The notes under the pieces: model-generated | Database searches by the model: none | The model's input: only the letters and a program-made list of their open reading frames with translations | Told to the model about the DNA's origin: nothing | Program-made: the position numbers and the translations under genes | In this document: piece after piece, positions 3,390 to 45,860 of the stretch | Numbering within the stretch: position 1 is the stretch's first letter | How the letters are laid out: every line of letters starts with the position of its first letter | NCBI GenBank assembly: GCA_035694565.1 | Contig: DASSFK010000071.1 | Coordinates: 1-47,317, forward strand | Source: Sphingomicrobium sp. | Lineage (GTDB): Bacteria > Pseudomonadota > Alphaproteobacteria > Sphingomonadales > Sphingomonadaceae | Direction: 5' to 3' | DNA: 47,317 nt

Positions 3390-4817
3390 TCAACCCTCCC
3401 GTGCGTAAAGCTGTGCGATGTAGGCCCGGTCACTTTGTGAGAGTTCATTCCCCGCAACGAAGCTCTTGCCGTTCCTGAGAACCCGCGGCGGCAGCGGGAA
3501 GCTCATCACCGAGTTAAAATCGACGGGTCTCGAGCCTGGATAAGCTGCGGTATCGAAGAACATCTTGCTGATCTGGTCGCCGCTCATGTGCATCGTCCCT
3601 TGAAAGTAAGCCATGAGCGCGTCCCGGTTATAATATTGCTGAGCCTGGGGGTTTTGGAACTCATGCACGAGACCGAGCGAATGACCGATCTCATGGAGGA
3701 AGGCCGTCCTCGCCCAGGCGTCTCCGATTGGATGGCCAAGCCAGATTGTCGGCTCGTCGGGCAGGCGCTGCTGCGCATTGCGTCCGACGTAGGACCAGCT
3801 GGCTCCATCATTGGCGAATTTCGCCCGGATGTCGGAGTCCCCGGACCGAACGTAGCTGACGTGGAGGTTAGCGTATTTGAGCCACTCCCCCATTGACTCC
3901 TCGAACAGCTGCCTTTCCGCGGGCCCACCATTCAAAAACCTGACCCGAATGGTTGAGCCGGCCGGCCAGAGGGCGGCATTCGCGCCAGGCTGAAGTGCAC
4001 GGCCTTCCTCGAAACCGAGCTTGCGCAAGGTTGGTGACGGACTGCTCTCACCTACGTTCCTCAAGTCGAAGCTTGCTATTGCGATGCCGACCACCAGTGG
4101 CTGCTTCGTCTGCATCCTCGTGCTCGAAACGAAGGTGCCGCCGCTTTCTATGACTGCCTCTTTGCCCTTGTGGCCGAACATCCGTTGGAGACTTGCAGCG
4201 AATCCGGTCTGACCTTCCCTTCGAAAGCGATACTCGAAGCTCGTGGGGCGCAGGATGCGGGTGATCACGGTCCTGTTTGGGTCGCGTAGCGCCGCGGCCA
4301 GATCCGCCTGTCCCGCGACGGCCTGCTGCAACGAAGCCAAGGGCGCCTCAAGGATCATTATGTCCTTCATCACCAGTTCGAAACTCTGGACGCCCTTCGC
4401 ACGCGCTTCCGCGCCGATGCGCGCCGGGAGGGCACCCGAACGAAGTCCGGCGTCGATCGTATCGGTGATTGTCACGTCGTAGGGGCCGGTCTCCTGAAAG
4501 AGTCCGCCGGCGGAGGGGCCCAGAACTCTCGCCGACCGCTCATAGAGCATGACGTCACCCGAACGCGGCGCATCGGGCGCCGCGGCCGGCCATTGAACGA
4601 TATCGCCCGGAAGAAAGCCGCCGCGCGCAGGAACGAGGAAGATGAAATTCTGCTTCTCGACCCAGTCCTGGAGCGTTTTGGTTTCATTGCGAGGCCAGAA
4701 ATAGCCAGCGAGAAGCAGGATGAGGGCGGCACCAGCCGCAGCCAATGCGATCCAAATACCCTTGCTCCGCCCAAATCGGGCGGAGCGCCTTGCGCCCCGG
4801 CTGCGCGCAACGGTCAT
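3390..4817 (-). CDS. TM-anchored protein: putative gasdermin-like domain plus C-terminal metzincin (M12/astacin-like) Zn-metalloprotease
   Basis: ATG at 4817 overlaps the upstream stop (ATGA); basic N-terminus then TM helix IWIALAAAGAALILLLAGYFW; protease motifs LWPAGSTIRVRF, SDIR, SWSYVG, HEIGHSLGLVHEFQ and Met-turn SVMSF. The protease call is strong; the gasdermin call is pattern-based. Confidence 0.8.
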   Translation of the reverse strand: MTVARSRGARRSARFGRSKGIWIALAAAGAALILLLAGYFWPRNETKTLQDWVEKQNFIFLVPARGGFLPGDIVQWPAAAPDAPRSGDVMLYERSARVLGPSAGGLFQETGPYDVTITDTIDAGLRSGALPARIGAEARAKGVQSFELVMKDIMILEAPLASLQQAVAGQADLAAALRDPNRTVITRILRPTSFEYRFRREGQTGFAASLQRMFGHKGKEAVIESGGTFVSSTRMQTKQPLVVGIAIASFDLRNVGESSPSPTLRKLGFEEGRALQPGANAALWPAGSTIRVRFLNGGPAERQLFEESMGEWLKYANLHVSYVRSGDSDIRAKFANDGASWSYVGRNAQQRLPDEPTIWLGHPIGDAWARTAFLHEIGHSLGLVHEFQNPQAQQYYNRDALMAYFQGTMHMSGDQISKMFFDTAAYPGSRPVDFNSVMSFPLPPRVLRNGKSFVAGNELSQSDRAYIAQLYAREG

Positions 4818-6145
4818 GCCGTCATGGCCATCGCGACAACTTTCCCGCAAGCAGGCGTCGCGACATTGTTGTGCGCGTCAACGCCGTTGGCCGCGACGAC
4901 GAAAGTATCCGCGAGGACGAGGTTGACCTTACCTTTTTCAAAGGCGAGCGCCGCGGGGTCTGCCCTGACGGTCGCTCCCGCAGGCAGACCCTGAGGCCCG
5001 TTTGCTCCCATGGCCCCGAATGGGTCGTCGGCGCCGCCGATCGATTTGCTGGTGTCACCCGACAGGCGCGATGCGAGGGGATAGGCGATGGTGCACGCCT
5101 TGTCGTTATGCGTGTGCGTATAGACGATCGCTCCGCGCGGTTTGCCCAGTGCGCTCGCGAACACTGCATTCCCGCCCGTCAGCGCATTGTGCGAATACGC
5201 GCCCTGCAGGAGCGTGAGGCTCTGGAATTCGAGATTTGGTGGCACTGCGAGGTTCGCGGCCGCGGACGTGACCAGCCGCGCTCCGAAGCTGTGGCCGACC
5301 AGATGAAGTTTCAGTGTTCGTGGCGGGCGAAGCGCGCCAAGCACCTGTGCCAGGCAACGACCCACGAGGCCCGCCCTCTTCTTCATCGTGTAGTAGGTCA
5401 GCTTGTTGAGTGCCCACAGGACACCACTGCGGGTCCCCTGAAACGTCGCGAGAACGACGTTACCAAGACCTTTGGCGCCGCCGGTGCCGGCCGGCACATC
5501 AAACACTGGCGGCATGGCAAGCGCGTTGATCGCGTCGTCGGCCCCGAACAGGGTTTTGGTGCCCTTGAAATTCTCACGGTCCTCGAGAAGCTCCGAGTCC
5601 TCGGTCTCCTCGTCGACCCCCAGATGCTCCCTGGCTGTTTTGAAAAAGTCGAATGCCGCCTGATCTCCTCCGCCCGCGTCAAGCGCCCGTGCCGCCGCCT
5701 TGATGGCCTCAGCCGCATCCGGTCCGACGAACCCGTCGAGCAAAGCGAGCTTCTCCTGGAAGCTATTCTCACCGATGTCGCCAATTGAAGGGTCGTCGCC
5801 GACCGACTTGGTACCGCCGCCGCTTTGCGGACGAACTTCGGTCGCCTCGGCGCCATCGTAGTCGGCGTCATACTCCTTGGCCGGCCAGAGCACGCCGACG
5901 ACCACGAATTCTTCCGGCTTGGCGCCCCCTTGCGCGAGCGTCTGCAGGGCATTCGTCCAAAGACCGGTGTAGAGATCGGCCGCATTGCGCTCGTCGTTGT
6001 TCCAGCCATGAGAGATGACGACAAGGTGGCGCACCTTGTCTCCGGCGATGGCGTCGGCGAGGCGCTTGGCGGCACTTGGATCGTGCAGGGCCCCCGCTTC
6101 ATCGAAGTGGAGCCACAGGAATGGTGAACCGGCGATTGCATCCAT
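4814..6145 (-). CDS. Alpha/beta-fold hydrolase (esterase/lipase-like)
   Basis: Oxyanion motif SHGWNN; nucleophile elbow GHSFG; candidate acid in HNDKA and His in DAHNN; RBS GAGGA. Confidence 0.8.
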   Translation of the reverse strand: MDAIAGSPFLWLHFDEAGALHDPSAAKRLADAIAGDKVRHLVVISHGWNNDERNAADLYTGLWTNALQTLAQGGAKPEEFVVVGVLWPAKEYDADYDGAEATEVRPQSGGGTKSVGDDPSIGDIGENSFQEKLALLDGFVGPDAAEAIKAAARALDAGGGDQAAFDFFKTAREHLGVDEETEDSELLEDRENFKGTKTLFGADDAINALAMPPVFDVPAGTGGAKGLGNVVLATFQGTRSGVLWALNKLTYYTMKKRAGLVGRCLAQVLGALRPPRTLKLHLVGHSFGARLVTSAAANLAVPPNLEFQSLTLLQGAYSHNALTGGNAVFASALGKPRGAIVYTHTHNDKACTIAYPLASRLSGDTSKSIGGADDPFGAMGANGPQGLPAGATVRADPAALAFEKGKVNLVLADTFVVAANGVDAHNNVATPACGKVVAMAMTA

Positions 6146-6154
6146 GGATTCCTC

Positions 6155-7765
6155 CTAGACGGACTGGAGTGCGCGCATCAGGTCGATGAGGCCGGCACCC
6201 TGGAATTCGGGGCGCCGTCCCAGGTCGGTGGCGCTCTTCGTGAAGATCTCCTTCACCCGCATCGGGTCGCCCCGGAATTCGCGGCGCACGGAAAGGAAGG
6301 CCGCGATGCAGCCCGAGACATGGGGCGCGGCCATGCTCGTTCCCGAATCTTCGCGATAGGGCGCCTCTCCAGGGTTCGCGGGGTCCATTTGGGCCGCGGA
6401 CACGATCCGCTCGCCCGGTGCCACCAGATCGGGCTTCATCCGGCCGTCCGACGTCGGGCCTTTTGACGAGAAATATGAGATCCCAAATCCGTGTGGAGAA
6501 TCGCGATGCGTCGAGCCGACGGTGATCGCGAGATTTGAATTTCCGGGATCGTTGATTGTCGCGAGATGCGCCGCGCGCTCGACTTCCCGACTAAGCGTCT
6601 GAACCGTGCCGTAGCCCCCGTTGCCGGCAGCGACGACAACGATGACGCCGTTCCGCACAAGACGATCGACCTCCTGGCACAGGGGGCTTCGGCCCGCCGC
6701 AAACCAGCGGGCGTCGAACGTGTACCCGAGGCTGAGATTGAGGCCGTGGATGCGCACGTTCGCGCCATAGTCGTTCGCCTTGTGGATGTAGCCAATTGCC
6801 GCCAGCAGCAGGGCGACGTCTCCTCCGCTGCTCGACTGCAGGACCTTGAGGCTGAGAAGTTTGCACTTGGGTGCCATGCCCGTGATCGTCGCGCGCGTGT
6901 CGTTGGTCTCGACGTTGACCTGAATGTCGGAGACGCGGACGTTCTGCTTGATCACGATCCTCAGCGCATCAGCCTTGCAGGTCTCTCCAGCGATGATCCC
7001 GGCGACATGAGTGCCGTGACCATCGGTATCGACGAGCGGCTGCGGAAGCGGGTCGCTGAAATCGTGATGCTCGAGGCCATTGGGTAACTCGAGCGTTTTG
7101 TTGGTCAAGAAGTGGGGATGTGTCCCGTCGATACCCGTGTCTGCAACGGCCCATACGATACCTTCACCCGCCGCTTCGAAGGCGACCCTTGCAGCGTCGC
7201 ATTTTACGGTTCTGACCGATTCAAAGACGTTCCGGTTCAGCGAATGGTTGAGCCAGATTTTGTGGACGAGCGGTACCGGCGCAGCACATTCATCTTGCGC
7301 CTGATTCCCGCTGCTACGCGGCGCATCGGCATCCTTGGGTGCCGGAAGGGTGACTGTTGCCTGGGACAGCCGCAGAATGGTTTCGTAGCCTAGGCAGCCG
7401 AACACGTAATAGTCGGTCCAAACCGAGTTGCCGTCGTCGACTTTGTCGTCAGTTGCGAACAGGTGGAGCTCGGCGAGCATCTCCCGAAATGCTGAAGTCA
7501 TGGTTCGCTCAAGAGCAGCGTGCGCGTTCTTTGTTGGAGTCGTCCGGGTATCGTTCAGGAAGATGTGGAGGATGAAGTCACGAGCCTGGCGTGCCCCAAG
7601 CGGGAAGCCCGCGTTGGCCTCGATGATCACCGGGAACTTGCCGAGGGCACCCGTCTTCTTCTTGAGCTTCGCCCGCTCTTTCGCGATTTCGGCGAGGAGA
7701 TCTCCAGCGAGCCGCGTCCTCGCAAGGTCCTCGCGAAGTTCATCGGGCGTCGGTTCGTCAGCCAT
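6155..7765 (-). CDS. S8 family serine peptidase (subtilase) with long N-terminal pro-region, no signal peptide
   Basis: Triad VADTGID / HGTHVAG / GTSMAAP; oxyanion AAGNGG; KPDLVAPG; GGAG RBS before the ATG at 7765. Confidence 0.95.
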   Translation of the reverse strand: MADEPTPDELREDLARTRLAGDLLAEIAKERAKLKKKTGALGKFPVIIEANAGFPLGARQARDFILHIFLNDTRTTPTKNAHAALERTMTSAFREMLAELHLFATDDKVDDGNSVWTDYYVFGCLGYETILRLSQATVTLPAPKDADAPRSSGNQAQDECAAPVPLVHKIWLNHSLNRNVFESVRTVKCDAARVAFEAAGEGIVWAVADTGIDGTHPHFLTNKTLELPNGLEHHDFSDPLPQPLVDTDGHGTHVAGIIAGETCKADALRIVIKQNVRVSDIQVNVETNDTRATITGMAPKCKLLSLKVLQSSSGGDVALLLAAIGYIHKANDYGANVRIHGLNLSLGYTFDARWFAAGRSPLCQEVDRLVRNGVIVVVAAGNGGYGTVQTLSREVERAAHLATINDPGNSNLAITVGSTHRDSPHGFGISYFSSKGPTSDGRMKPDLVAPGERIVSAAQMDPANPGEAPYREDSGTSMAAPHVSGCIAAFLSVRREFRGDPMRVKEIFTKSATDLGRRPEFQGAGLIDLMRALQSV

Positions 7766-7795
7766 CGTCGTTCTCCGCAACGAAACAAGGCGTGG

Positions 7796-8884
7796 TCATT
7801 TGGGCCGGATCACGTCGCTTGAGATGTTCTTGAGCACAGCCTCGAGGTCAGCCTTGAGCGCGCCTGTGTCAGTCCCCGCGGCGGCGCCATCGATCTGCGC
7901 TTTGAGCTCGAGCGCCTTGTCCCGATATTTCAGGTCGGACACGAGCTCGACTCCGGTCATGATCGTGTCGATCGTCGCCTGCGCGCCATCCTTCATCTGG
8001 AAGAAGCGCTGGAGAACCGAAGCGCTCGCAACGGTCGGCTTGAACTTCTCCAGTCCCTGCCGGGGCTTTCCATCGATGCTGATGACGACATAGGGCGCGT
8101 CGCCGTCATAAACGCGTCCAGCGGCATCAATCAGCCCTCGTTGCGGGTCGTACTTGAAGGCCGACGCGTCGAAATCGTCCTCGGTGATGATGCGGAATTC
8201 CGCCTCGGCTACCGGAATGCCCGGCACATCGAAGTCGATGGATCGCGTGACGCTGAATGCAGGCCGGCCGTCGAACAAGGCTTCCCCGAGTCCTCCGGCA
8301 AGCTTCACTACGCCAGCAGCGCCCATGAGATAGCCGGCCGCCGGGAGGAGTATCGGCAGACCCGAAAGGTTCGTGAACGCGCTCGACACCTTATCGAAGA
8401 GCTCGCCCGGGAAATTGTCGACGGCGAACTCGACAGTCACGATCTGGGAGTCCGTTAGGACGGCGGGCGAATAGGAGATGAGGGCTGTGCCTTCCGCAAA
8501 GGCACTGGGCATGCCCACGCGCGAATGCGATTGTTTCCCCTGGGCGATGAAATTGAGCGCACGCGCTGAAGCGCTGAATACATCGTAGTTCTTGACGCCG
8601 GACACGACCGCGATGTCCTTGCTGCCGCCGCCGAGAAGTCCCTTCTTCGGGAAGCGCCCGGTGTAGACGTCGCGAAGCATGACTGTAAGCGGAAGGCCGC
8701 GTCCGATGGGGGTGAAGGCGACAGGTGCGCCCGCCGCGGTGTCCCCCACAGAAAGGGCCTTGCCGCCGCTGAACTCGATTGTCGCTGGTCGATCGCTTTC
8801 TGGAGCCGCATTGAACTCGGTGGCCCGCAAGCGATACTCGGACTCGCTGACGACATGTTCGTCGAGCACTCGGTAGATACCCAT
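7796..8884 (-). CDS. Hypothetical protein (beta-rich core, Gly/Ala hydrophobic hairpin, C-terminal helical segment)
   Basis: Strong RBS GAGGAGG before the ATG at 8884; coding-like codon usage; in operon; no family recognised. Confidence 0.75.
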   Translation of the reverse strand: MGIYRVLDEHVVSESEYRLRATEFNAAPESDRPATIEFSGGKALSVGDTAAGAPVAFTPIGRGLPLTVMLRDVYTGRFPKKGLLGGGSKDIAVVSGVKNYDVFSASARALNFIAQGKQSHSRVGMPSAFAEGTALISYSPAVLTDSQIVTVEFAVDNFPGELFDKVSSAFTNLSGLPILLPAAGYLMGAAGVVKLAGGLGEALFDGRPAFSVTRSIDFDVPGIPVAEAEFRIITEDDFDASAFKYDPQRGLIDAAGRVYDGDAPYVVISIDGKPRQGLEKFKPTVASASVLQRFFQMKDGAQATIDTIMTGVELVSDLKYRDKALELKAQIDGAAAGTDTGALKADLEAVLKNISSDVIRPK

Positions 8885-8975
8885 TCGTTGCCTCCTCAGA
8901 CCAGGGTCGGCTTTCCACTCACTTCGTTGCCCTTCGCTCAAGCCACTCCGCTCACCCCTCTGACGCGTGCGCGCA

Positions 8976-11252
8976 TCAGCGGAGCAGCTGCAGCAATGTC
9001 TCTTCGTCTAGCGAACCCGCTTCAGGAGGCCGTCCGACCGTCGACGCAATCGCCTTGTTCTTGGTGAGGCCCTTGATGACCTCCGGCAGGTCGTCGGCTA
9101 CGAATGGTCCCTGGGGCACACCGGCCTTGTTGGGCCGCCATGCCGCGATCGCCTCCGGAAACTCGATCAGATGCTCGGCGAGCTGCGGCCACCGCAGCGC
9201 CAGCATCGCCCAGCGCGCACGGGCTTCGGACGCCACCATCCGCCCTTCGATGAACCCGCGCGCCTGCGCGATGGCGACATCGTTGACGAGGCGTTTCATC
9301 GCCCTTGGATTGGCCTCGACGAGGCCGAGCAGCCTCCGCAGCCGGCTTTCGGTCACCGCCTGTGCAGCGGGCGTCGTGATCTGGATTGCCGCTTCCTCGC
9401 GAAACGCCCGGCGCCTCGCCTCATCGGTTTCCGGCACGCTGTCGACGGCAGCCTTTAATTGCGCTTCTGTTTGAAGGTTCGAAAGGGCGCTTCGAGCTTC
9501 GTTCCGGATGTCGTCATTGACGACAGCAGGTCCGCCGCCGCCACCGAGCGTAAGCCTATCGAGGAACTGGCCTTTGATCTCCTCGGTGAGCTTGGGCATG
9601 CCCGCGGAGATCTGGAACATCTTTTCGAGGAAGAGATAGCCGAGCGGCCGTCCGGGCTCGCCGATCTGGGAAGTGAAATCAGCGTAGCGCTTTTCGAACG
9701 CAGCGCAGATCCACTTTCGATCGGCGGCAGCGACGTAGGTGACTGGCTTGCCCTTGAACAGGATCTGGATGCCCTCGAGCAGATCGACGACGACGTCGGC
9801 ATCGCAGCGGTCGAGGTCGTCGATGATGATGACGAGGGGCTCGGCGACCGCATCGACCACGGCATCAAAGAGCCTGACCACCGGCGCCATCGCGTCCGCC
9901 TTGAGCTCCGAATAGGCCTGGGCGGCCCGGCTCGACCCGAACATCAAGGAACGCCCATAGGCGTAGATGGCCGCCGAAGCCGTCGCCACTGCGGCGACGA
10001 TCTTCACTGCGGTGTCGATCGATGTCCGGTCGCTTCCGATCTCGAGAATGACAAGCCCGAACACTGCCGCGATGATCACGAGCGGGAGGATGTCAGCGCG
10101 CAACCGCCACCACCACCACCGCAGCCTCAGGCGCCATTTTGCGCGGGACGTAAGCGGCCGATCCTTGTCCTGGAGGACCGACGAATAGATTGTACGAAGG
10201 AAGGGCCACCAAGGCGGGCGCCGCTTGTTGTGCGCCCAGGCGTTGAACCAGATCACCCGCATGGGCTTGCCCGTCCCCTCTGCTTTCTCGAGATGCTTTT
10301 CGAGAAAGTTGAGCACCGAGGATTTGCCCGAACCCCAGCGGCCATGGATATGGAGCATGAAGGCGGGGCTATCGGCAGACTCTGCTCCCGCCTCCTCGCG
10401 CAGTTGACGAATGCGCTCGGCGAGAACTCTCGCAAAGGGCTCGCGCTCGAGGAGGTCTCGGACAGCGGGAACGTCCGTCTGGGTGCGATAATGGTCGTCC
10501 GGTTCCGGAGATGGCTGAGCCTTGTCGACTATGGGTTTGTCAGGCGTCTCTCGCGGGGTCGTCTTCGGCGGCACGGGCGTGACCGTGGTCTCGGCGTCGC
10601 CAAAGCCGTCGGCCTCGGCGAGAAGACGCTTCCACTCGTCCGACCGCTCGCCTCGCTCTGGTCGCTGCAGCGTGTAGTCGACGATGATTTTGCGAAGCTC
10701 GGCGAGGTCTGCAGGCGTCGGCGTCGTCTTGAGCGGCGTGAACGCACTTCCAGTATCCTTGCTCAGGACGAAGAGGAAATGACGAAGATCCACGACATCC
10801 CGGCCGACCGTCGCCCGAGCGATCTCTTGCGCCTCCTGCATCACCTCGCGGACCGACCCTGAGGCGACAAGCTGCCGGCCCGAGGCAAGCTCCTTTCGGA
10901 TTTCGGCGCCATTGTCCTGACGACCGAGCACTTCCTCGATGGCCGGGTCCAGGCGCCGTGCCCATTGCGCGACCCAGCTCGACGAATTGTGCTCTTTAGG
11001 AGCGGAGAGACCGAGTTCGAGAATGCCCATCGTCAGCGCCCTGCGGCTGAGGAGTGGCCCGCGCTCATGGACGTGGGCGTAGCGCGAGCCACGCTGGATC
11101 GATTCGACGAGGGCGGATGCGTTCGGGTTCACGACCGAGCGCAGGAAATCGTCGACCTCGTCCCCCAGCCCGCCGCTCCTCGGCAACGGGGGCTCTTCGC
11201 GTGGAAGCGAGTATGCACGCGTGCCGCTCGGGGCTCCGCTTCTCGCGCTCAT
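8976..11252 (-). CDS. KAP-family P-loop NTPase with N-terminal ClpN-like region
   Basis: DLLEREPFA; Walker A GRWGSGKS; FNAW; two inserted TM helices; Walker B IIIDDLDRC; FLEKMFQ; NPRAMKRLVN. N-terminal SVREVMQEAQEIARATVGRDVVDLRHFLFVL resembles a Clp repeat. Confidence 0.9.
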   Translation of the reverse strand: MSARSGAPSGTRAYSLPREEPPLPRSGGLGDEVDDFLRSVVNPNASALVESIQRGSRYAHVHERGPLLSRRALTMGILELGLSAPKEHNSSSWVAQWARRLDPAIEEVLGRQDNGAEIRKELASGRQLVASGSVREVMQEAQEIARATVGRDVVDLRHFLFVLSKDTGSAFTPLKTTPTPADLAELRKIIVDYTLQRPERGERSDEWKRLLAEADGFGDAETTVTPVPPKTTPRETPDKPIVDKAQPSPEPDDHYRTQTDVPAVRDLLEREPFARVLAERIRQLREEAGAESADSPAFMLHIHGRWGSGKSSVLNFLEKHLEKAEGTGKPMRVIWFNAWAHNKRRPPWWPFLRTIYSSVLQDKDRPLTSRAKWRLRLRWWWWRLRADILPLVIIAAVFGLVILEIGSDRTSIDTAVKIVAAVATASAAIYAYGRSLMFGSSRAAQAYSELKADAMAPVVRLFDAVVDAVAEPLVIIIDDLDRCDADVVVDLLEGIQILFKGKPVTYVAAADRKWICAAFEKRYADFTSQIGEPGRPLGYLFLEKMFQISAGMPKLTEEIKGQFLDRLTLGGGGGPAVVNDDIRNEARSALSNLQTEAQLKAAVDSVPETDEARRRAFREEAAIQITTPAAQAVTESRLRRLLGLVEANPRAMKRLVNDVAIAQARGFIEGRMVASEARARWAMLALRWPQLAEHLIEFPEAIAAWRPNKAGVPQGPFVADDLPEVIKGLTKNKAIASTVGRPPEAGSLDEETLLQLLR

Positions 11253-11261
11253 AGCCGCACA

Positions 11262-12809
11262 CTACCCATTGGCTGCCGCCGCACGCTTCGCGAGCAGACG
11301 CATCAGCGCTTCGAAGCGAGACTCCACCAAGGCCAGCCCGAGCTCGCCGCCATTGATCGCCCGGCGGTCGTCGCGAAGCCCAGGCGTTGCTGCAAATCGG
11401 TCGAGCTTGTGGCTCTTCCAAAACCAGCCCGCGCCCGCGCACCCGCCCTCCTTGGTCCGGAGGTAGTTGGGCACGTCGTCGACCGGGATTCCGATCTCGT
11501 CGGCGAGCCCCTGGCAATTGGCACGACCGGTCAATTGCTTGGGGCCGTAGCCGCGAAACTTCCAGCCATCGCCGGGCTTGGTATTGCCGAGATTCTTGCG
11601 GCCCCACTCCCCGCCGTAGAGAATGTTGGCGATCTCTTCCTGCCGTTCCTTCGAGAGCGGCGCTTCACCGCGCTTGCGCCCGAGGCGCCGCGCTTCGGCT
11701 TCGCTGATGCGATGCCTGCCGAAGTTCTTGAGCAGCCCTTCGACACTGTAGTTGAGGCTTTCGGTCAAGCGCGTAAGTCCCGCCGATTCGACCGCGATAT
11801 TGGCAAGGAAGCTGCAGAGTTCGCGGTCCGTGTCGATCCCGAACCTGCGGCAGGCGGCCTGCATCGAACCAATCCACTGCTCGAGCTCGGAGGCAGTGTT
11901 CTCGGGGAAAGCAGTGCGCAGGAATTCGAGGTCAATCTGCGCTAGCCACGGGTTATCGCTTGCCTTCGCGCCTGGCTTGGCGGCTGCTCCCGCCGCTGCC
12001 GCGGCCGCCTTCACCAGCGCGGCCTGCGCCGGAGCGTCCGGCTCATCGTCCATCGCGCCCCAGGTGATCGGTCCGACGATCCCGTCGGGCACGAGATCGT
12101 GCGCTCGCTGCCAGGCCCGAAGACGCGCCTCGGTGCGCGGCCCGAAGATCCCGTCCTCCGTCAGGCCCAGAACGTGCTGGAGTAATTTCACCTCGTCCGA
12201 GCGGCTGCCGCGACGAAGTGTCGGGCGGCCTCCGGGATCTCCAGCGGGGATAGGTGGCGGCGGCGATCTTCCGAGAAGGACCTCGGCGACCTGCGCACGG
12301 AATGCGGCCATGTCAAAGGTGGGATCGACCTTGCGACCGAGCGGAAGCGCATATTCCTTGTGCCCGCAGCACATGTTCGCCGAGGCGCCAATGTGGGCGA
12401 GGATCGCTGCGACGCCCCGCCGATACGCCTCAAGCTGAACTTCTGGCCACGCGTCGAGCGGCTCGCCGCTATTCTCCGCCTCTATTCCGACAAAACTTGA
12501 GTTGCCGGTCCGGATTCCCTGCCACTCGCCACGCCCCGCGTGATTGGCCCGACCTGCGGCGACGACATAATAGGTTCCATCGCGGCCAAGCCCGAGATTG
12601 CACAGAGGACCGATGAGGCCTGCGCGCCCTCGGATGAGAACGTCGAGCGTCGGCATGTTGCCGCCCTGGCGGGTCGCCGTGTGGTGACACATGACGCCTC
12701 GAACCCGGCCCATTTCGGCGCGGCCGCGCGTCCGCCAGTCGTGTGTTTCCGCAACCTTGAGCCCCGCTTGCTGCAGCACGTCCGAAAGCCAGACCAGCGC
12801 GTAGGTCAT
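11262..12809 (-). CDS. Modular peptidoglycan hydrolase: Amidase_2 + PG-binding domain + GH19 lysozyme/chitinase-like domain
   Basis: Amidase motifs VMCHHTA, ANHAG, NSSFVGIE, GHKE..KVDP; PG-binding LRRGS..LQ..DGIFGPRT..DGIVGPITW; GH19 motifs FLANIAVES, ESLNYS, GDGWKFRGYGPKQLTG, AINGG. Confidence 0.9.
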   Translation of the reverse strand: MTYALVWLSDVLQQAGLKVAETHDWRTRGRAEMGRVRGVMCHHTATRQGGNMPTLDVLIRGRAGLIGPLCNLGLGRDGTYYVVAAGRANHAGRGEWQGIRTGNSSFVGIEAENSGEPLDAWPEVQLEAYRRGVAAILAHIGASANMCCGHKEYALPLGRKVDPTFDMAAFRAQVAEVLLGRSPPPPIPAGDPGGRPTLRRGSRSDEVKLLQHVLGLTEDGIFGPRTEARLRAWQRAHDLVPDGIVGPITWGAMDDEPDAPAQAALVKAAAAAAGAAAKPGAKASDNPWLAQIDLEFLRTAFPENTASELEQWIGSMQAACRRFGIDTDRELCSFLANIAVESAGLTRLTESLNYSVEGLLKNFGRHRISEAEARRLGRKRGEAPLSKERQEEIANILYGGEWGRKNLGNTKPGDGWKFRGYGPKQLTGRANCQGLADEIGIPVDDVPNYLRTKEGGCAGAGWFWKSHKLDRFAATPGLRDDRRAINGGELGLALVESRFEALMRLLAKRAAAANG

Positions 12810-13909
12810 GGTCGGGCGACCCCCGATTCAACGCCTCCTGAGGCGCGCGGGAGGTCCTCGTCCGCAGTCACTTCCGAATCCTCGAGCGCGGCCTCGGAAG
12901 GGCAGCCGTCTTCTTCACCGTCGTCAGCCAGAGGCCCGTTCTCATCGGCGTCCGCCACTTCCGGGCCGGCGCCTTTCTGGGTTGGCATGATCGGTGGGGG
13001 CACGCCCAGGGGCGGTGTATCAGCCCGCCTGACGATGGGCTGCTCGCCCGTGCGCACGTCGGCTTTGGCGAGAAGGTCGGGAACAAGCCGTTCCGCGAAA
13101 CCGGCGATGAAGCTCACGACGAGGATATGGATGCGCGCATATTCGTCGATCGACGTGTCGCCCAGATGGAATCGAACGAACCCCGAGAGGAGGAGCGCGA
13201 TCATGACCACGCCACCGATCGCCCCGACGACGACGCGCAGGACGGCGTCCATCAGGTTCGCTGTCCGATAGAGATCGGTGAGGATGGTTCGCCCGCGGAT
13301 ACCGAGGGCAATCGAGAAGAACGCGCCAATCGCGCCGGCGGCGAAGCCGTGCCAGAGATCGACGGCGTGCTCGACGCAGAAGACGCGATCGGCCGTGCTC
13401 TGGCATGGCCCTGCGGCATCCAGCAGCATGGCCAGAGCAGCGAAGATGCCGATCGCGATAACAGTCGCAAACGCGGCCATCAGATATTCAAAGCGCGACC
13501 AGCCGACCCGTTCGTTGAGGATGTCCTGCTTGACCTGTTCGAGAAGAACACCGGCGCCGGCCAGGTCGCCCTCGAGCGCAACATGGAGAGCATCGGCTAC
13601 ACGGCGATCATAGCGCTCGGCTTTGCTTCGCAGCTTCTTGCCGTTGTGGATCCTGAACAGGAGGAAGCGCTTTGAATCCGGTGCAGAGCGCCAGCCGTCG
13701 ATCAGGCCGGCGATCTCGCCGCGGATCGGAGCAAGCTGGCTGATTGCCTTGCGCTGCGGGTTGGAGCTGGCCGTCTCGTCGGCAAACTGGACGAGCACGC
13801 GCTGGGCCGTCCTGTAGACCGCGAATTCGGGAGGCTTGCGCGCGTAGATGCAGACGATTGTTGCGCCAAGCGCGTCCGATCCGTCGACCGCCAGATCGGC
13901 AATGTTCAC
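12806..13909 (-). CDS. Hypothetical membrane protein (soluble N-domain, 4 TM helices, acidic tail)
   Basis: Four hydrophobic segments including AGAIGAFFSI and FIAGFAERLVP; stop overlaps the amidase ATG; GTG start at 13909 chosen, 13993 also possible. Confidence 0.75.
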   Translation of the reverse strand: MNIADLAVDGSDALGATIVCIYARKPPEFAVYRTAQRVLVQFADETASSNPQRKAISQLAPIRGEIAGLIDGWRSAPDSKRFLLFRIHNGKKLRSKAERYDRRVADALHVALEGDLAGAGVLLEQVKQDILNERVGWSRFEYLMAAFATVIAIGIFAALAMLLDAAGPCQSTADRVFCVEHAVDLWHGFAAGAIGAFFSIALGIRGRTILTDLYRTANLMDAVLRVVVGAIGGVVMIALLLSGFVRFHLGDTSIDEYARIHILVVSFIAGFAERLVPDLLAKADVRTGEQPIVRRADTPPLGVPPPIMPTQKGAGPEVADADENGPLADDGEEDGCPSEAALEDSEVTADEDLPRASGGVESGVARP

Positions 13910-14137
13910 GCGACCCTGCCCGTAAGACGCGCGCGAACGAATGGGATAACAAGCCTTTCCATGCCCAGAGTTCCCCCGAGCAAGATTCGGCAACCGGCAG
14001 TCTACGCCTTGTATAATTTTACTTCAACGGATTGCTGTACCGGGGCAAGCACGACGCCGATGCGCCGGGCCAGCTTTGGGGGACGCATTAGGTTGCCGCA
14101 CGGGCAAGGTAAGGGTCCCAACAAAATCCTAGAAATC

Positions 14138-22648: not shown

Positions 22649-22950
22649 TGGCTCGCCGGGGAATCCGCGGCCCGGCCGATGTCGAGACACTTCGCTCCGA
22701 CAGGCCAGTATCGATCAAAATCGATCGGCTGACTTTCGATGGCCTGACGCTGTCGGCGGGTGAGGCCCGGCGAGCTGGAGCCGCGCTGGAACTGGAACTG
22801 TCGCGGTTGGCAGTCGATGGCCACTGGCCTCACCAAGGAGTGGCAATCCCCTTGGCCAGGCCGCCCGTGTTGACAATTACGCCCGGGTCGCCGGAGCAGC
22901 TAGGCAGGCTCATCGCTCGCGCATTGTTCAAAACCGTGAGGGAAGCGTGA
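22645..22950 (+). CDS. Small eCIS-associated hypothetical protein
   Basis: Overlaps both neighbours; VSIKIDRLTFDG and EQLGRLIARALF. Confidence 0.7.
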   Translation: MMARRGIRGPADVETLRSDRPVSIKIDRLTFDGLTLSAGEARRAGAALELELSRLAVDGHWPHQGVAIPLARPPVLTITPGSPEQLGRLIARALFKTVREA

Positions 22951-25900
22951 GCCGGGTGCTCGCCGCGGCTGAACCGACCGCTGCTGAGGCGGTGTCGCGG
23001 CCGGCTCCCAAGAGAAGGCCTTCCGCAATCCGCGAGCCGGGGATGGAGACTTCGGCGCTGGCGATCGGCGCCTTTGCTGGGCTGCCCGCTGGGGCTGTCA
23101 GCGATCCCGACGGGCAGCGCGCCCTACTGACCGCGCTGTTGCTTGAGCAGCTCGCGCCCGCGCTCGGCCTCGATCCCACGCGCATCCGCATCCGCTGCGA
23201 TCCGGGCGCTGCCGCCCGGCTCGACGCGGCCGGCGCGCAGGGGCTGCAGGAAGGCTCGAACATCCTGCTGCACCCGGCCCGCTTCCGGCCGGAGACGAGC
23301 GGTGGTCGCGGCCTCCTCGCGCATGAGGCGGCCCATGCCGCCCAGCGTCTGCTTACCGGCCCGTCCGACGAAGCCGAGGCCGAGCGCGAGGCAGCAGCGA
23401 TTGCCGAGGCGGTCATCGAGAACCGCCGCCCTGATCGGCCGGTGGTGCCGCTGCGGACGCTGCGCGCCGCCGCCGACGCCGGCCAGGTCGCCGCCGCACC
23501 CGATCCGAAGCAGGTCCTGGTCAGCCGCCAGCGCGAACTAGCGGTGATCCGCAAGGCGCTGTCGGGCTGGTGGGTCTCGGACGGGGATGTCTTCCGCGTG
23601 CTGGCAATCCTCGAGGCCGTGCCCCACGCGGTGATCGAGCCGCTGCTCAACAACCTTTCCGAAAAGGAGCGCTACTGGCTCGCCGACAACATCAACCCGC
23701 CGCACGTCTATCGCAACCGCCGCACCGCACTCGCCTGCTACCAGCGCACCCTGACCGACGCCCGGCTGCGCGACGCGATCGACCTCAAGGTGATGCGCGC
23801 CTTGCCGCTATTCGGCATGACGACCGAGGAGCAGGAGACCGCCGCCTGGATTCTCGAGCATCTGTCCCACGCCCAGCGCGAGGAGCTGCTGGCGTCGGAC
23901 AACGGCGCCGCGATCGCCCACATCATGGGGGCGCCGCTGCCATCGGCTGAAGAGCTGCAGCGCATCCGCGACGAGTCGAAGAAGGCCGCTAAGGCGGAAG
24001 CTGAGCTGCATGACAAGCAGGTCGCGGCGGACGCCCAGTCGGGCATTCCCGAAACTCAGGCCGCGCTCGACATGATCAAGACGCTGCTGGGCGACAAGGC
24101 CAACGCCGGCACGGCGCGACGGGCACTCGAGGTGATCGGCGAGGGGGGCGTCGAGACGGCACGCTTCCAATATCTCGCCGACCAGCTCGATGAAGCGGGC
24201 TTGATCGACAAGCTGGTCAAGTTGCTCCCGGTCAAAACGCTGTTCGACACCACGCACGGCGCTACCCTGTTCGCGCTGGTCCGCTCGCGCCTGCCGATCA
24301 AGAACGAGGAGTTGATCGAAAGCCAGCTCAGCTATCACATCACCAGCTGGGCGATCCGCGACGACGAGGCGCTCTATGCCTACAAGTTGATCAAATCGCT
24401 GCCGCTCTCGGCGCAGCACAAGTTCCGGCTGCGCGACGGCGGCAAATGGTACCTGCGGCTGCTCGAGAATTTGCCGACTGATCCCTCGAGCCAGCGCGGC
24501 TATCCCGGGCTCGAGATCCGCAAGGCCGAAACCCAGGCGGAGATCGAGGAGCTCCGCAAGGCCGGCGCAAAGCAGATCGACGAGAAGGAGCTGCTCTACA
24601 ACGCCTCCGAACTGCAGGAAAAGCGGCTCGAGGATGTCGGTGCCACGACGGTGCTGAACGACATCCTGGCGGCGTTCAGGGAAGCGGAAAAGGGCATCTA
24701 CCGCGATCATGAAGCGAGGGGCATGTATGTCCTGTTAGCGGGGGTCGGCAGCTCGGTCCTGACGGCGAAGGCCGACAAGCCGGCCGACCGGTTGCTGCGC
24801 GAGGCCGTCGTCCACGAGCTCGACCGGCTCGGCCACATCGACAGGCTGTTCGACAACCTGCCCGATTCCTTCCTGTTCAACGAAGAGAACCGGATCACCA
24901 CCGTCCAGATCATGATGGCGCGCGACCCGTCACGCGCGCGGGCGCACGCTCGTGAGCTCGTCTCGACCGGCTTCACCGACTGGATGGTCAAGGACGGTGA
25001 GGCCTGGCTCGCCTATCAGTGCGTTAAGGCGCTGCCGCCCGACGAGCGCGAGGCGTTCATCGCCGAGGAGCCCGACGCCTGGAAGCGCATCCTCGGCGAG
25101 ATGAGTGAGAGCCAGCGCCAGGCGAGCGACCTCAACCTCTATGTCGGCGATAAGGCGGGCACCGACCGCGCCTCGGTGCTCGGCCAGCTGGCCGAGGCGC
25201 AGACCTGGACCGAGGACAACAGCGGCATCGTCACCAACCTGGTGCGGATGGCGATCTCAATGACCGAGCACCGCTTCGCCTTCGCCCAGTCGGAGAAGTT
25301 CCTGGCCTACGCGAAAGGCCCCAAGCTCGCCGCGGTGGTCGAGAAATTCCGGCTCTACCACAAGGTCGAGCGGCCCCATTACGAGCCAACCCTGCTCAAG
25401 GGCACGCACTGGTACGAGGAGGGCGTGTTCGCAACGCTGCGCCAAGTCTGGGGCGGGCTTGTCACCGTGGTACGCACCGACCTCCTGCTGGTCGAAGGCG
25501 GCATCGGCATCCGCACCGACGTGCGCGACGTCCAGGGCATGATGGGCGGCAACCTGTTCGGCGCGCGGGTGGCCGATCCCGCCAAGCGCGACGCCGACCA
25601 GCCGCTGCCACATCCCGAGGCCAACAAGCTCTCGCTGATCATCCGGCCGTTCGACAAGAGCGCCGAGCTCCGCCTGCCCGAGCTCGAGCTCGAATCCTCC
25701 AACATCCAGATGGGCGGCAGCACCCTCCAGTTCAGCCGCCTGATGCTGCGCGGGCTGCAGCTCGAAGCGGCCTTTGCCACCGACCAACGGGACCAGCCGG
25801 TGCGGGCCTCGGCCGAGGTCGCCTCGGTCCAGGTCGACGACCTGCTCATCTCCAAATCCTCCAGCATGCTGGCGATCGGCCGGCTGTTCGTCGGCGCGCT

Positions 25901-44687: not shown

Positions 44688-45860
44688 TTCGGATGGGATA
44701 GCGAAGGTCGGCTGCTTCCCCACTATCGGGGAGCGCCGCGGCGACAAGGACAAGAAGGTTCTCGCTGTGGACGAGATGGAAGTGCCGATCATTCGGAAGA
44801 TCTTCTCGCTCTACCTGGAGGGAGACGGCTCTTCAGGACCGATGGGCATCAAGAAGATCGTCTCCTGGCTCAACCGCAGGAATTACACCTATCGCGGCAA
44901 GCCCTTCCATGTCTCAAACGTCGACGTGGTGCTTCGGCGTACGACCTACATGGGCGCGCATTACTTTAATCAAAAAGACTCACGCACCGGCGAACGTCGT
45001 CCACGCGAAGAGTGGGTGCCCATCGCGGTGCCTGCGATCATCGACGAAGAGAGCTTCCAGACAGTCCAGGCTCGGCTGGGACAGCGAAATCCGAGGCAGA
45101 CACCTGCGCGAGTTGTCTCCGGGCCGACGCTCCTGATCGGCATTGCGCGGTGCGGCTGCGCGAGCTGTGGCGGCGCCATGACCATCCGGACAGGCAAGTC
45201 CGGTCAGTACCGCTATTATGCCTGCTCGAGGCGAGCCACGCGTGGCGAGACGGCCTGCATTGGTCGTTCCATTCGGATGGAGAAGCTCGACAAGATTGTC
45301 CTCGTTGCGCTGGAGGAGCGAGTACTGGCACCCGAGCGGCTTGCCGAACTTCTCACGGCATTTCTGGAGAAGAGCGACGAGTCTGACCAGCGCAGGCGTG
45401 AGGAGCTGGCGCTGCTCCGTGGCGCCAGGACCAACAGCGAGGGTGCCCTGAACCGGCTTTATGAATTTGTGGAGTCAGGCCTGGCGTCGCCGGGCGAAGT
45501 GATTTCGCGGAGCGACTGACCCATCATCGGCAGCGCATCGCCGCGCTCACCACTGACATCGCCGCGCTGGAGCGGCAGCTCGCCTCGAGTCAGCGCCGCA
45601 TTACGCCCGATGTGATTGGCCGATTCGGCAAGCTGCTTAGAGATGGTCTTCGGGCGGACAACCCAGCTCTGCGCCAAGCCTACACACGCCTACTCATCGA
45701 CGAGGTGACTGTCGAAACCGACCGGGTTCAGATCCGAGGCTCGCGGAAAGCTTTGGAGAGGGCCGTCATAGCTACCGCCGCGAACGGCGCGGCGAAAGTG
45801 CCCAGTTCTGCACGGGAGTGGCGCGCCCGGCAGGATTCGAACCTGCGACCCCAAGCTTAG
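44680..45860 (+). pseudogene. Large serine recombinase (integrase) remnant, lacking the catalytic N-domain and frameshifted
   Basis: Recombinase domain (IRKIF..Y...MGIKKIV..LN), Zn ribbon CASCGG..YRYYAC and coiled coil are present, resolvase domain is absent; frameshift near 45496-45500 continues as DFAERL...VPSSAREWRARQDSN into the tRNA antisense strand. Confidence 0.9.

What the first reader, a model, noticed from the sequence alone, without database searches (positions are those of the whole stretch)
3390..4817. Gasdermin-like domain with an N-terminal membrane anchor fused directly to a Zn-metalloprotease
Seen: between the TM helix and the HExxHxxGxxH protease lies a ~205-aa domain (~4056-4679) with TLQDWVEKQNFIFLVPARGGFLPGDIV, GVQSFELVMKD, RTVITRILRPTSFEYRF and QPLVVGIAIASF. 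These match, in order and approximate spacing, bacterial gasdermin segments as I recall them from the Bradyrhizobium bGSDM (GINLILPPRDNIAPGDLII, FVVTKVWRA, LIFGLTL); this is recalled, not database-checked. Known bGSDMs are ~260-aa cytosolic proteins, often with a lipidated N-terminal Cys, and a short inhibitory C-tail cut by a separate protease. Here there is no such Cys, a signal anchor predicts periplasmic exposure, and a metzincin replaces the tail after a flexible linker (VGESSPSPTLRKLGFEEGRAL). Inference: a self-cleaving or subtilase-activated extracytoplasmic gasdermin-like pore former.
Basis: partly seen in the sequence, partly recalled or inferred. Interest (0 to 1): 0.9.

Follow-up and report, generated by a model that had tools for sequence, protein, structure and literature searches.

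The report
Membrane-anchored gasdermin carrying its own protease
A soil bacterium encodes one protein that joins a predicted membrane anchor, a domain with the predicted fold of the pore-forming cell-death proteins called gasdermins, and a zinc-protease domain; relatives carry either this protease or a caspase-like one, so it is likely an all-in-one, self-triggering pore former that would act from the outer face of the inner membrane, a layout our literature searches did not find described.

Summary
Confirmed. The gene at 3390-4817 (-) encodes 475 aa: a basic tail, one transmembrane helix (20-42), a gasdermin-fold domain (49-~270) and a myroilysin-like zinc protease (284-475). Gasdermin assignment: a family profile matches only Runella gasdermin in the PDB (E 0.006). 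An AlphaFold model (pLDDT 77) matches bacterial gasdermins best (Z 11.6, rmsd 4.0 A, 189 aligned). The ESM Atlas model agrees (TM 0.69). All four predicted membrane strands keep conserved beta-type amphipathicity. It belongs to a small, rare family: 11 of 11 full-length members have the anchor 8-14 residues before the domain; 9 carry the metalloprotease and 2 a caspase-like protease. The charge bias favours a periplasm-facing domain (9 of 11). The neighbouring subtilase is probably not the activator: it has no export signal and travels with the adjacent hydrolase in rhizobial plasmids without this gene. A conserved ~20-residue segment remains between the two domains. Best reading: a pre-anchored gasdermin zymogen cut in cis. 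Pore formation, cut site, topology and trigger are untested. New variant of a known kind; interest 0.8.

The parts
3390..4817 (-). Whole gene, P0001, 475 aa: TM anchor - gasdermin-fold domain - myroilysin-like M12 metalloprotease
   Evidence: the same architecture in 9 full-length proteins including this one
4761..4817 (-). Basic N-terminal tail (aa 1-19; 7 K/R and no D/E in the 15 residues before the helix), predicted cytoplasmic
   Evidence: positive-inside rule (established knowledge); topology inferred
4692..4760 (-). Single transmembrane helix / signal anchor (aa 20-42), where bacterial gasdermins carry a palmitoylated Cys
   Evidence: Kyte-Doolittle 2.26; present in 11 of 11 full-length members, 19-26 aa long
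4068..4673 (-). Gasdermin-fold core (aa 49-250)
   Evidence: profile match to Runella gasdermin; AlphaFold pLDDT 76.8; Foldseek and VIA; ESM Atlas TM 0.69
4374..4481 (-). Predicted membrane hairpin 1 (aa 113-148); two helices in the monomer model but conserved every-second-residue hydrophobicity; length 31-32 in 10 of 11 members
   Evidence: column-shuffle p 0.0006 and 0.012
4110..4238 (-). Predicted membrane hairpin 2 (aa 194-236); amphipathic strands with a tip of variable length (Y196-P240 span 31-46 aa across the family)
   Evidence: p 0.001 and 0.0006; the tip has low pLDDT
4032..4067 (-). Variable Gly/Ser/Pro-rich loop (aa 251-262), candidate cut site B
   Evidence: 14% mean identity; Leu-Gly in 2 of 2 caspase fusions and 0 of 11 metalloprotease-type rows
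3969..4031 (-). Conserved strand-helix segment (aa 263-283) at the position of the gasdermin C-terminal end/inhibitory peptide and of the protease pro-segment; candidate cut site A at L275|Q276 (3995-3990)
   Evidence: 44% mean identity; R273 and Q276 in 11 of 11 metalloprotease-type rows and 0 of 2 caspase fusions; structural range ends; mature myroilysin start maps to 276
3393..3968 (-). Myroilysin-like (M12A astacin family) zinc metalloprotease domain (aa 284-475)
   Evidence: Pfam Astacin E 8.5e-6; myroilysin 5zjk E 1.4e-23
3660..3695 (-). Zinc motif HEIGHSLGLVH plus the astacin family-specific Glu386
   Evidence: sequence; present in 10 of 10 metalloprotease-type rows that reach it
3498..3512 (-). 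Met-turn SVMSF (M438)
   Evidence: M438 invariant in alignment A5

Best explanation
The protein is a gasdermin-fold domain fused to an intact-looking zinc-protease domain, predicted to be anchored in the inner membrane with both domains facing the periplasm, and it is likely a latent pore former that its own fused protease would cut free. Steps. (1) Shown: one hydrophobic helix ahead of the domain in every full-length member. Inferred: N-in/C-out insertion, with the helix doing the job of the palmitoyl chain of ordinary bacterial gasdermins, so the protein is already on its target membrane. (2) Inferred: the conserved segment 263-283 links the two halves in a latent state, capping the gasdermin and keeping the protease from having its mature N-terminus. 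(3) Inferred: an envelope signal, or a first nick by another periplasmic protease, starts cleavage, most likely near L275|Q276 and possibly also in loop 251-262; the freed protease then cuts neighbouring copies. (4) Inferred from the fold and the conserved amphipathic strands: the tethered gasdermin domains oligomerise, insert two beta-hairpins each into the inner membrane from outside, and kill the cell. The likely role is suicide-type defence.
For: Fold. Hairpins: all four predicted strands show beta periodicity against column shuffles (p 0.0006-0.012), including a segment modelled as a helix (132-140, p 0.03); 3 of 3 control helices do not (p 0.27-0.61). The profile alignment to Runella gasdermin is colinear through both hairpins, with short tip deletions. 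Anchor in 11 of 11 members, 8-14 aa before the first helix; charge difference favours N-in in 9 of 11, neutral in 2, against in none. All 11 full-length members carry a C-terminal protease domain with its catalytic motifs, of two unrelated classes: M12 in 9, caspase C14 with His-Gly and DACR motifs in 2. Loop 251-262 has Leu-Gly only in the caspase fusions; Leu-Gly is the P1-P1' pair needed by the Runella caspase-like protease (10.1101/2021.06.07.447441). Astacin-family enzymes need maturation so that the new N-terminus binds the family-specific Glu (PMC9629494). That Glu is kept in 10 of 10 rows, and the mature start maps to the invariant Q276, within about 4 residues of the position equivalent to the Vitiosangium pore-domain end. 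The gasdermin core is about as conserved as the protease (40% versus 47%).
Against: No experiment, and no oligomer prediction could be run. Topology rests on charge counts, not on a dedicated predictor; 2 members are neutral and 1 is only +1. Hairpin 2 varies from 31 to 46 residues and is marginal for spanning a bilayer in P0011. The model is unreliable at the hairpin-2 tip and at 279-288 (pLDDT<50), and structural ranges give only end points, so the tail mapping is weak. No zinc-blocking Cys or FEGDI Asp-switch motif is present, so latency of the protease is not explained; D278 is conserved in 10 of 11 rows but is Gly in this copy. The two candidate cut sites disagree. The two caspase fusions are related to each other (32% identity), so they are not independent. 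Z 11.6 with rmsd 4.0 and 12% identity is a distant match, and a shared fold does not show function. Neighbourhoods of the relatives could not be read, so the defence role rests on this one locus.
Confidence: 0.45

Rival explanations
1. Tethered pro-toxin for export: the anchor is cut off (by signal peptidase or by the fused protease at the 8-14 residue stalk), and the gasdermin domain makes pores in other cells, like CDC-like antibacterial toxins or the predicted cytolysin-like bGSDM-Ig proteins.
For: Myroilysin-type proteases are secreted enzymes (PMC9629494 and PMC9848320; passages and listing). bGSDM-like domains fused to Ig-like domains are proposed to target non-self membranes (10.1101/2023.04.20.537723). 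CDCLs are protease-activated antibacterial pore formers (PMC11952106). ESM Atlas look-alikes include a 'putative Lipoprotein' cluster. P0004 has a Cys right after the helix.
Against: The helix often ends in aromatic residues and shows no consistent signal-peptidase motif by inspection; 0 of 11 have a canonical lipobox. The stalk is short and unconserved. There is no receptor-binding domain in the 9 metalloprotease fusions, and no obvious immunity gene beside it.
Confidence: 0.17
2. A gasdermin fold reused without pore formation: a membrane-anchored periplasmic protease whose gasdermin domain serves as spacer, scaffold or oligomerising regulator.
For: Variable hairpin 2; distant structural match (rmsd 4.0); the protease is slightly more conserved than the domain; no functional data.
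Against: Conserved beta-type amphipathicity in all four strands and near-constant length of hairpin 1; swap between unrelated proteases on the same gasdermin scaffold; Leu-Gly only in the caspase versions.
Confidence: 0.15
3. A pore former cut by another protease (the neighbouring subtilase, or a protease from a phage, predator or host envelope), with the fused protease acting as the inhibitory domain or as a second, released effector.
For: The subtilase is two genes upstream in the same run of genes. Subtilase-gasdermin pairs exist in fungi and in Gloeobacter (PMC13475620). Astacin zymogens need a first cut.
Against: The subtilase has no export signal and pairs with the hydrolase elsewhere without this family. 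The catalytic motifs of the fused proteases are kept in every member that reaches them. A foreign first cut followed by self-amplification stays compatible with the best explanation.
Confidence: 0.13
4. Holin-like lysis for release of the neighbouring contractile injection system: the pore lets the adjacent amidase/lysozyme-like protein reach the cell wall.
For: An eCIS cluster lies at about 15.3-44.7 kb on the opposite strand. An amidase/PG-binding gene without an evident signal sequence lies in the same run of genes.
Against: Seen in one locus only; relatives' neighbourhoods could not be read. The annotations of the subtilase-hydrolase loci L014 and L015 list no eCIS genes.
Confidence: 0.05
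5. Opposite topology: the anchor is N-out/C-in, so this is a cytoplasm-facing, pre-anchored gasdermin that otherwise works like known ones.
For: Known gasdermins attack from the cytosol (PMC13475620); charge bias is neutral in P0006 and P0013.
Against: A basic residue directly precedes the helix in 11 of 11 members, and the bias is N-in in 9 of 11. Astacin-family enzymes are described as extracellular (listing).
Confidence: 0.05

Closest known systems
Bacterial gasdermins (bGSDM) of Vitiosangium (PDB 7n51, 8sl0), Bradyrhizobium (7n50) and Runella (7n52, 9v2s); 10.1101/2021.06.07.447441, 10.1101/2023.04.20.537723, PMC13475620
   Same: Fold (Z 10.3-11.6, 182-189 residues aligned), weak profile match, two amphipathic hairpins, association with a protease
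   Different: Transmembrane helix instead of a palmitoylated Cys; predicted periplasmic instead of cytosolic; protease in the same polypeptide instead of a separate gene; metzincin, a class not found in the passages read; about 12% identity
Gloeobacter kilaueensis GKIL_3049, bGSDM fused to a LysM-like domain (PMC13475620, section read)
   Same: A bacterial gasdermin with an extra C-terminal domain, about 480 aa, next to a subtilisin-like protease gene
   Different: The fused domain is LysM-like, not a protease; no anchor described
Cytolysin-like bGSDM-like proteins fused to Ig-like beta-sandwich domains in Pseudomonas and Lysobacter (10.1101/2023.04.20.537723)
   Same: Predicted gasdermin domain plus a C-terminal domain
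   Different: Putative membrane-binding domain instead of a protease; described as lacking protease operons; no anchor mentioned in the passages read
Myroilysin (M12A, Myroides; PDB 5zjk, 5gwd, 5czw)
   Same: Whole catalytic domain aligns (E 1.4e-23): zinc motif, family-specific Glu, Met-turn
   Different: No Cys-switch pro-peptide; the gasdermin domain and segment 263-275 sit where the pro-peptide would be
CDC-like toxins (CDCL; PMC11952106, passages)
   Same: Protease-activated giant beta-barrel pore formers of Gram-negative bacteria; distant fold match (Z 5.0-6.1)
   Different: Two components, N-terminal activation loop, act on other cells; much weaker structural match than the gasdermins

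Membership tests
Gasdermin fold (superfamily) | Twisted central beta-sheet with alpha1 and the beta1-beta2 loop, superimposable on gasdermin N-domains | tested here: met
   Z 11.6, rmsd 4.0, 189 aligned to 7n51; first 14 of 48,161 chains are gasdermins or gasdermin-like; profile match E 0.006
Gasdermin fold (superfamily) | Two hairpins with alternating hydrophobic/polar residues able to span a membrane | tested here: met
   Sequence pattern in 4 of 4 strands, p<=0.012; hairpin 2 length varies 31-46 and is marginal in P0011
Gasdermin fold (superfamily) | Oligomerises into membrane pores | not testable with these tools
Canonical bGSDM | N-terminal palmitoylated Cys (common, not universal: the Gillisia protein lacks it) | tested here: not met
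   No Cys in P0001; P0004 and P0009 have a Cys just after the helix, not conserved
Canonical bGSDM | Soluble cytosolic protein of about 260-270 aa | tested here: not met
   448-873 aa with a transmembrane helix in 11 of 11
Canonical bGSDM | Short C-terminal inhibitory peptide across the sheet | tested here: inconclusive
   Segment 263-283 is conserved and structural alignments end on tail residues 253-264 of the inactive structures, but pLDDT is below 50 at 279-288
Canonical bGSDM | Activated by a separately encoded neighbouring protease | tested here: inconclusive
   A subtilase is nearby but has no export signal and has its own conserved partner; the protease here is fused; activation itself is untested
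Canonical bGSDM | Pfam PF26164 Bact_GSDM match | not testable with these tools
   Family not in the local library; the Atlas structural neighbour cluster is 85% PF26164
Canonical bGSDM | Anti-phage defence / cell death on activation | not testable with these tools
   Needs experiment
M12A astacin family, myroilysin type | HExxHxxGxxH followed by the family-specific Glu | tested here: met
   375-386; 10 of 10 rows that reach it
M12A astacin family, myroilysin type | Met-turn | tested here: met
   M438 invariant, aligned to the myroilysin Met-turn
M12A astacin family, myroilysin type | Pro-peptide with a Cys switch (myroilysin) or FEGDI Asp switch (animal astacins) | tested here: not met
   No Cys and no such motif in 251-283; features taken from PMC9629494
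M12A astacin family, myroilysin type | Proteolytic activity | not testable with these tools
   Needs experiment
Caspase-like C14 (relatives P0009, P0013) | His-Gly and Cys (DACR) catalytic dyad motifs | tested here: met
   Pfam Peptidase_C14 E 5e-7; both motifs aligned in both proteins

The most novel reading that the evidence does not exclude
A family of one-gene, outside-in pyroptosis devices. The gasdermin is held in the inner membrane by a transmembrane helix and faces the periplasm. It carries an exchangeable activating protease (astacin-like or caspase-like) in the same chain, and a single cut frees both the pore and the protease. It would let a bacterium kill itself in response to events in the periplasm, such as phage injection, predator entry or injected proteases, with no cytoplasmic sensor.
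Probability: 0.35. Interest if true: 0.93.

Novelty: new variant of a known kind. Interest (0 to 1): 0.8.

Why it matters
In the papers read here, gasdermins are soluble proteins that attack a membrane from the cytosol after a separate protease, or a partner protein, activates them. This family would break three of those patterns at once: it is an integral membrane protein, it faces outward, and it carries its activator in cis, with a metzincin or a caspase used interchangeably. It would show that a transmembrane helix can stand in for gasdermin palmitoylation, which bears directly on the question of what the lipid does in pore assembly. It would also extend bacterial cell-death defence to the periplasm and add a link between self-killing gasdermins and exported cytolysins. 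A cultured carrier exists (Sphingomonas sp. OV641, WP_093066945.1), and one gene with one catalytic mutant is enough for a first test.

Tried and rejected
Single-sequence searches of the middle domain gave no gasdermin match: Pfam, PDB sequences (two chance hits, E 0.71 and 1.2), PADLOC (one weak REase hit, E 0.059), NCBIfam, plasmids. The first AlphaFold job, on a 2-row alignment, was too poor to use (pLDDT 39.5); its Foldseek result (myroilysin first, Runella gasdermin E 5.6e-3) is not counted as evidence. Stand-alone forms: none at E<=10 among 7,998 scored candidates of 113-364 aa, none among the 2 hits (58-818 aa) or the 12 hits. These searches are limited, and the ESM Atlas lists look-alike clusters of 220-277 aa, so stand-alone relatives are not excluded. 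P0015 and P0016 (2 of the 12 hits) were dropped as repeat-driven chance matches. P0018, P0019 and P0020 are near-duplicates that were in the folding alignment but left out of counts. DNA around relatives was not obtained: pattern scans found no confirmed locus in metagenomes, species genomes or viral contigs. The first look in those searches is loose, so this means 'not found in those searched'. No RNA holder was listed, which says nothing on expression. A lipoprotein reading was rejected for the family (0 of 11 canonical lipoboxes). A conserved twin-arginine signal was considered and rejected by inspection. A tree of the gasdermin core left most forks unresolved and put P0013 on a long branch, so no order of events is claimed. 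Literature: searches (uninformative) gave no listing that describes a transmembrane-anchored or protease-fused gasdermin. Most subscription papers are not held, the Science version of Johnson et al. was not held, and bioRxiv supplements are closed, so published gasdermin tables that may list such proteins were not seen.
Full report
Observation. The window encodes an intact 475-aa protein at 3390-4817 on the minus strand (P0001). Its ATG overlaps the stop codon of the upstream alpha/beta-hydrolase gene, and its codon-position GC is like that of its neighbours. Gene callers start it at residue 1 or 25; all full-length relatives begin with a tail and helix like the longer form. The protein has no Cys and one strongly hydrophobic segment, 20-42. 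The C-terminal domain is a myroilysin-like astacin-family metzincin: Pfam Astacin E 8.5e-6, myroilysin 5zjk E 1.4e-23 over 193 residues, with HExxHxxGxxH, the family-specific Glu386 and the Met-turn. The window is a whole contig of a genome assembly that is 74% complete. A soil-metagenome contig covers 2200-9000 without differences but may be the source sample; short near-identical pieces occur in other soil studies.

The middle domain has a gasdermin fold. Single-sequence searches find no gasdermin. Three kinds of evidence agree once relatives are used. First, the ESM Atlas model of this protein aligns to a 'Gasdermin bGSDM family' cluster with TM 0.69 over 195 residues and to eukaryotic gasdermin clusters with TM 0.56-0.57; one row at TM 0.66 is labelled TamB. 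Second, a profile of 11 family rows matches only 2 of 177,635 PDB sequences at E<=10, both Runella gasdermin, at E 0.0062 and 0.0078. Third, AlphaFold2 on a 16-row alignment gives a model of residues 40-288 with pLDDT 76.8 and pTM 0.73. For this model 12 of 12 Foldseek matches at E<=0.001 are gasdermins, and the best structural alignments are to Vitiosangium 7n51 (Z 11.6, rmsd 4.0, 189 aligned), Bradyrhizobium 7n50 (10.6, 4.0, 182) and Runella 7n52 (10.3, 3.8, 186). In a search of 48,161 chains without Foldseek, the first 14 rows are gasdermins or gasdermin-like, rows 15-30 are other cytolysin/MACPF-type proteins, and unrelated folds begin at Z 3.3.

It is a small family with a fixed plan and an exchangeable protease. 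Searches returned P0004, 12 hits among 1.84 billion representatives, of which 10 are real relatives and 2 were dropped as chance, and P0021 from the isolate Sphingomonas sp. OV641. With P0001 there are 11 full-length members and 2 fragments. All 11 have a single helix of 19-26 residues, 8-14 residues before the first gasdermin helix. Nine end in the metalloprotease. Two (P0009, 619 aa; P0013, 873 aa) end in a caspase-like C14 domain with both catalytic motifs; P0013 has a further ~290 residues that look like beta-propeller repeats by eye. The family is rare: the gasdermin domain was found in none of 60 relatives, 400 genomes of the order or 400 of the phylum, apart from the window's own genome.

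Topology. A Lys or Arg directly precedes the helix in 11 of 11 members. The net charge of the 15 residues before the helix exceeds that of the 15 after in 9 of 11, equals it in 2 and is lower in none. By the positive-inside rule (established knowledge) the gasdermin and protease face the periplasm. There is no canonical lipobox in any of the 11, and no consistent signal-peptidase or twin-arginine motif by inspection. No dedicated predictor was available, so a cleaved signal is not excluded. In known bacterial gasdermins a palmitoylated Cys lies just before the first helix and is predicted to flip into the membrane on activation (10.1101/2023.04.20.537723); the helix here occupies that place in the chain.

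Pore-forming features. Averaged over 11 members, all four predicted membrane strands alternate hydrophobic and polar residues more than column shuffles do: 113-127 p 0.0006, 134-148 p 0.012, 194-210 p 0.001, 221-236 p 0.0006. Segment 132-140, which the model folds as a helix, also has beta periodicity (p 0.03). Three control helices show none (p 0.27-0.61). Helices that refold into membrane strands are how bacterial gasdermins make their fingers. Hairpin 1 is 31-32 residues in 10 of 11 members (38 in P0013). Against this, hairpin 2 spans 31-46 residues and is marginal in P0011. Parts of these strands are ordinary core strands in the monomer, so some alternation is expected from the fold alone.

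The junction. Only 251-262 is variable (14% mean pairwise identity among the 9 full-length metalloprotease fusions); 263-283 is conserved at 44%, against 40% for the gasdermin core and 47% for the protease. Matches to other metalloproteases in plasmids start only at residue 280 or later of P0021. Two cut sites are candidates. Site A is L275|Q276. Residue 6 of mature myroilysin aligns to A281, which puts the mature N-terminus at Q276 by ungapped extrapolation. R273 and Q276 are present in 11 of 11 metalloprotease-type rows and 0 of 2 caspase fusions. The pore-state Vitiosangium structure aligns up to residue 268 at its residue 233, and its pore domain was truncated at 237, which extrapolates to about 272. 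Alignments to the three inactive structures run on to residues 280-281 at tail residues 253, 260 and 264, but the model is unreliable there. Site B is the loop 251-262, which contains Leu-Gly in 2 of 2 caspase fusions and 0 of 11 metalloprotease-type rows; Leu-Gly is the pair that the Runella caspase-like protease needs (10.1101/2021.06.07.447441). The two caspase fusions are related (32% identity), so this is a hint. No Cys or FEGDI switch is present, so how the metalloprotease is kept latent is unexplained.

Neighbourhood. On the same strand lie a multi-pass membrane protein (12806-13993), an amidase/peptidoglycan-binding protein (11262-12809), a KAP NTPase resembling QatA (8976-11252), an unknown 381-aa protein (7796-8941), a subtilase (6155-7780), an alpha/beta-hydrolase-like protein (4814-6145), this gene, an S1/P1 nuclease and a cupin. 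A contractile injection system cluster follows on the other strand from 15.3 kb. The subtilase and the hydrolase have no N-terminal hydrophobic segment. They recur as an adjacent pair, at 53-55% and 42-44% identity, in a Rhizobium and a Sinorhizobium plasmid, the 2 of 20 hydrolase-matching records that I opened; neither 17-kb locus matches the family profile. Protease plus alpha/beta-hydrolase pairs are a described defence module (10.1101/2025.11.14.688446, passages; the case studied there has a caspase). The subtilase therefore most likely serves the hydrolase, in a different compartment. The locus looks like a patchwork of defence-type modules; that is an inference from one locus.

Mechanism. 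Most likely (0.45) this is a latent, pre-anchored gasdermin facing the periplasm that is cut by its own fused protease, probably after an outside trigger, and then forms pores in the inner membrane and kills the cell. Shown: architecture, predicted fold, catalytic motifs, amphipathic strands, protease exchange. Inferred: topology, latency, cut site, self-cleavage, pore formation, role in defence. Rivals: shed toxin against other cells (0.17), non-pore scaffold for a periplasmic protease (0.15), activation only by another protease (0.13), lysis for eCIS release (0.05), cytoplasm-facing topology (0.05). My estimates for the separate steps are about 0.97 for the fold, 0.8 for periplasmic orientation and 0.65 for pore formation.

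Comparison with what is known. It has the fold of a bacterial gasdermin and is predicted to work like one, but it fails two tested features of canonical bGSDMs (lipidated Cys; soluble ~265-aa protein), so I do not file it as one. Fused bacterial gasdermins have precedents, a LysM-like fusion in Gloeobacter (PMC13475620) and predicted Ig-like fusions, but neither has an anchor or a protease in the text read. What I saw of each paper: 10.1101/2021.06.07.447441, passages and parts 1-2 of 3 of the main text; 10.1101/2023.04.20.537723, passages, section 5 and part 1 of section 6; PMC13475620, abstract, passages and section 6; passages only for PMC9629494, PMC11952106, 10.1101/2025.11.14.688446 (46), 10.1101/2025.09.30.679545 (43), PMC7159879, PMC10989679, PMC13631336 and 10.1101/2023.05.28.542683 (129); listing only for PMC9848320. 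Nine searches gave no listing describing this architecture. No supplements were seen, and published gasdermin tables could contain such proteins. The scan's earlier notes held no look-alike by sequence or place and none that held all the words.

Verdict. This is a new variant of a known kind, interest 0.8. The boldest reading not excluded is a one-gene, outside-in pyroptosis device with a swappable activator (probability 0.35, interest 0.93).

Noticed in passing
window 4814-7780 (-); L014 6315-9329; L015 6303-9329: Subtilase plus alpha/beta-hydrolase-like protein form a conserved two-gene module with 9-nt spacing, recurring in Rhizobium and Sinorhizobium plasmids; it may be an S8 version of the protease-activated hydrolase defence modules.
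   Followed up: partly
window 15312-44687 (+): Extracellular contractile injection system cluster: sheath, tube, Pvc16, AAA ATPase, baseplate, spike and DUF6519 genes, followed by a serine recombinase at 44680-45519.
   Followed up: partly
window 22947-30974 (+): Giant 2675-aa protein with an N-terminal eCIS-core (DUF4157-type) domain and no other Pfam match; possible large cargo or structural protein of unknown function.
   Followed up: no
window 7796-8941 (-); L013 10007-11071: Unknown 381-aa protein with no Pfam match. Its only plasmid relative (44%, Caulobacter rhizosphaerae) sits between two serine/trypsin-like protease genes and an AAA ATPase; not found in 100 genomes of the genus. Candidate protease-associated effector.
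   Followed up: partly
window 8976-11252 (-): KAP-family NTPase (QatA/PifA-like) with two hydrophobic segments and an unassigned ~260-aa N-terminal region that looks like a Clp N-terminal repeat by eye.
   Followed up: no
window 11262-12809 (-): Amidase_2 plus peptidoglycan-binding domain plus a C-terminal region resembling a family-19 lysozyme by eye (unchecked), with no evident export signal; its start overlaps the end of a multi-pass membrane protein gene at 12806-13993.
   Followed up: no
P0009 and P0013 (proteins, no locus): The same anchored gasdermin domain fused to a caspase-like protease; P0013 adds a ~290-aa probable beta-propeller that could be a periplasmic sensor. These may be the cleaner system for testing.
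   Followed up: partly
ESM Atlas clusters: Large unnamed clusters with gasdermin-like models or features (1177, 1084, 285 and 162 members, one auto-named 'putative Lipoprotein', one labelled TamB) and longer forms of 378-497 aa in Acidobacteriota, Planctomycetota and Pseudomonadota. Exported or fused gasdermin-like proteins may be far more common than this family.
   Followed up: no
window 4221-4223 region of the family alignment; P0001 residue 278 (3984-3986): Position 278 is Asp in 10 of 11 metalloprotease-type rows but Gly in this copy; meaning unknown.
   Followed up: no
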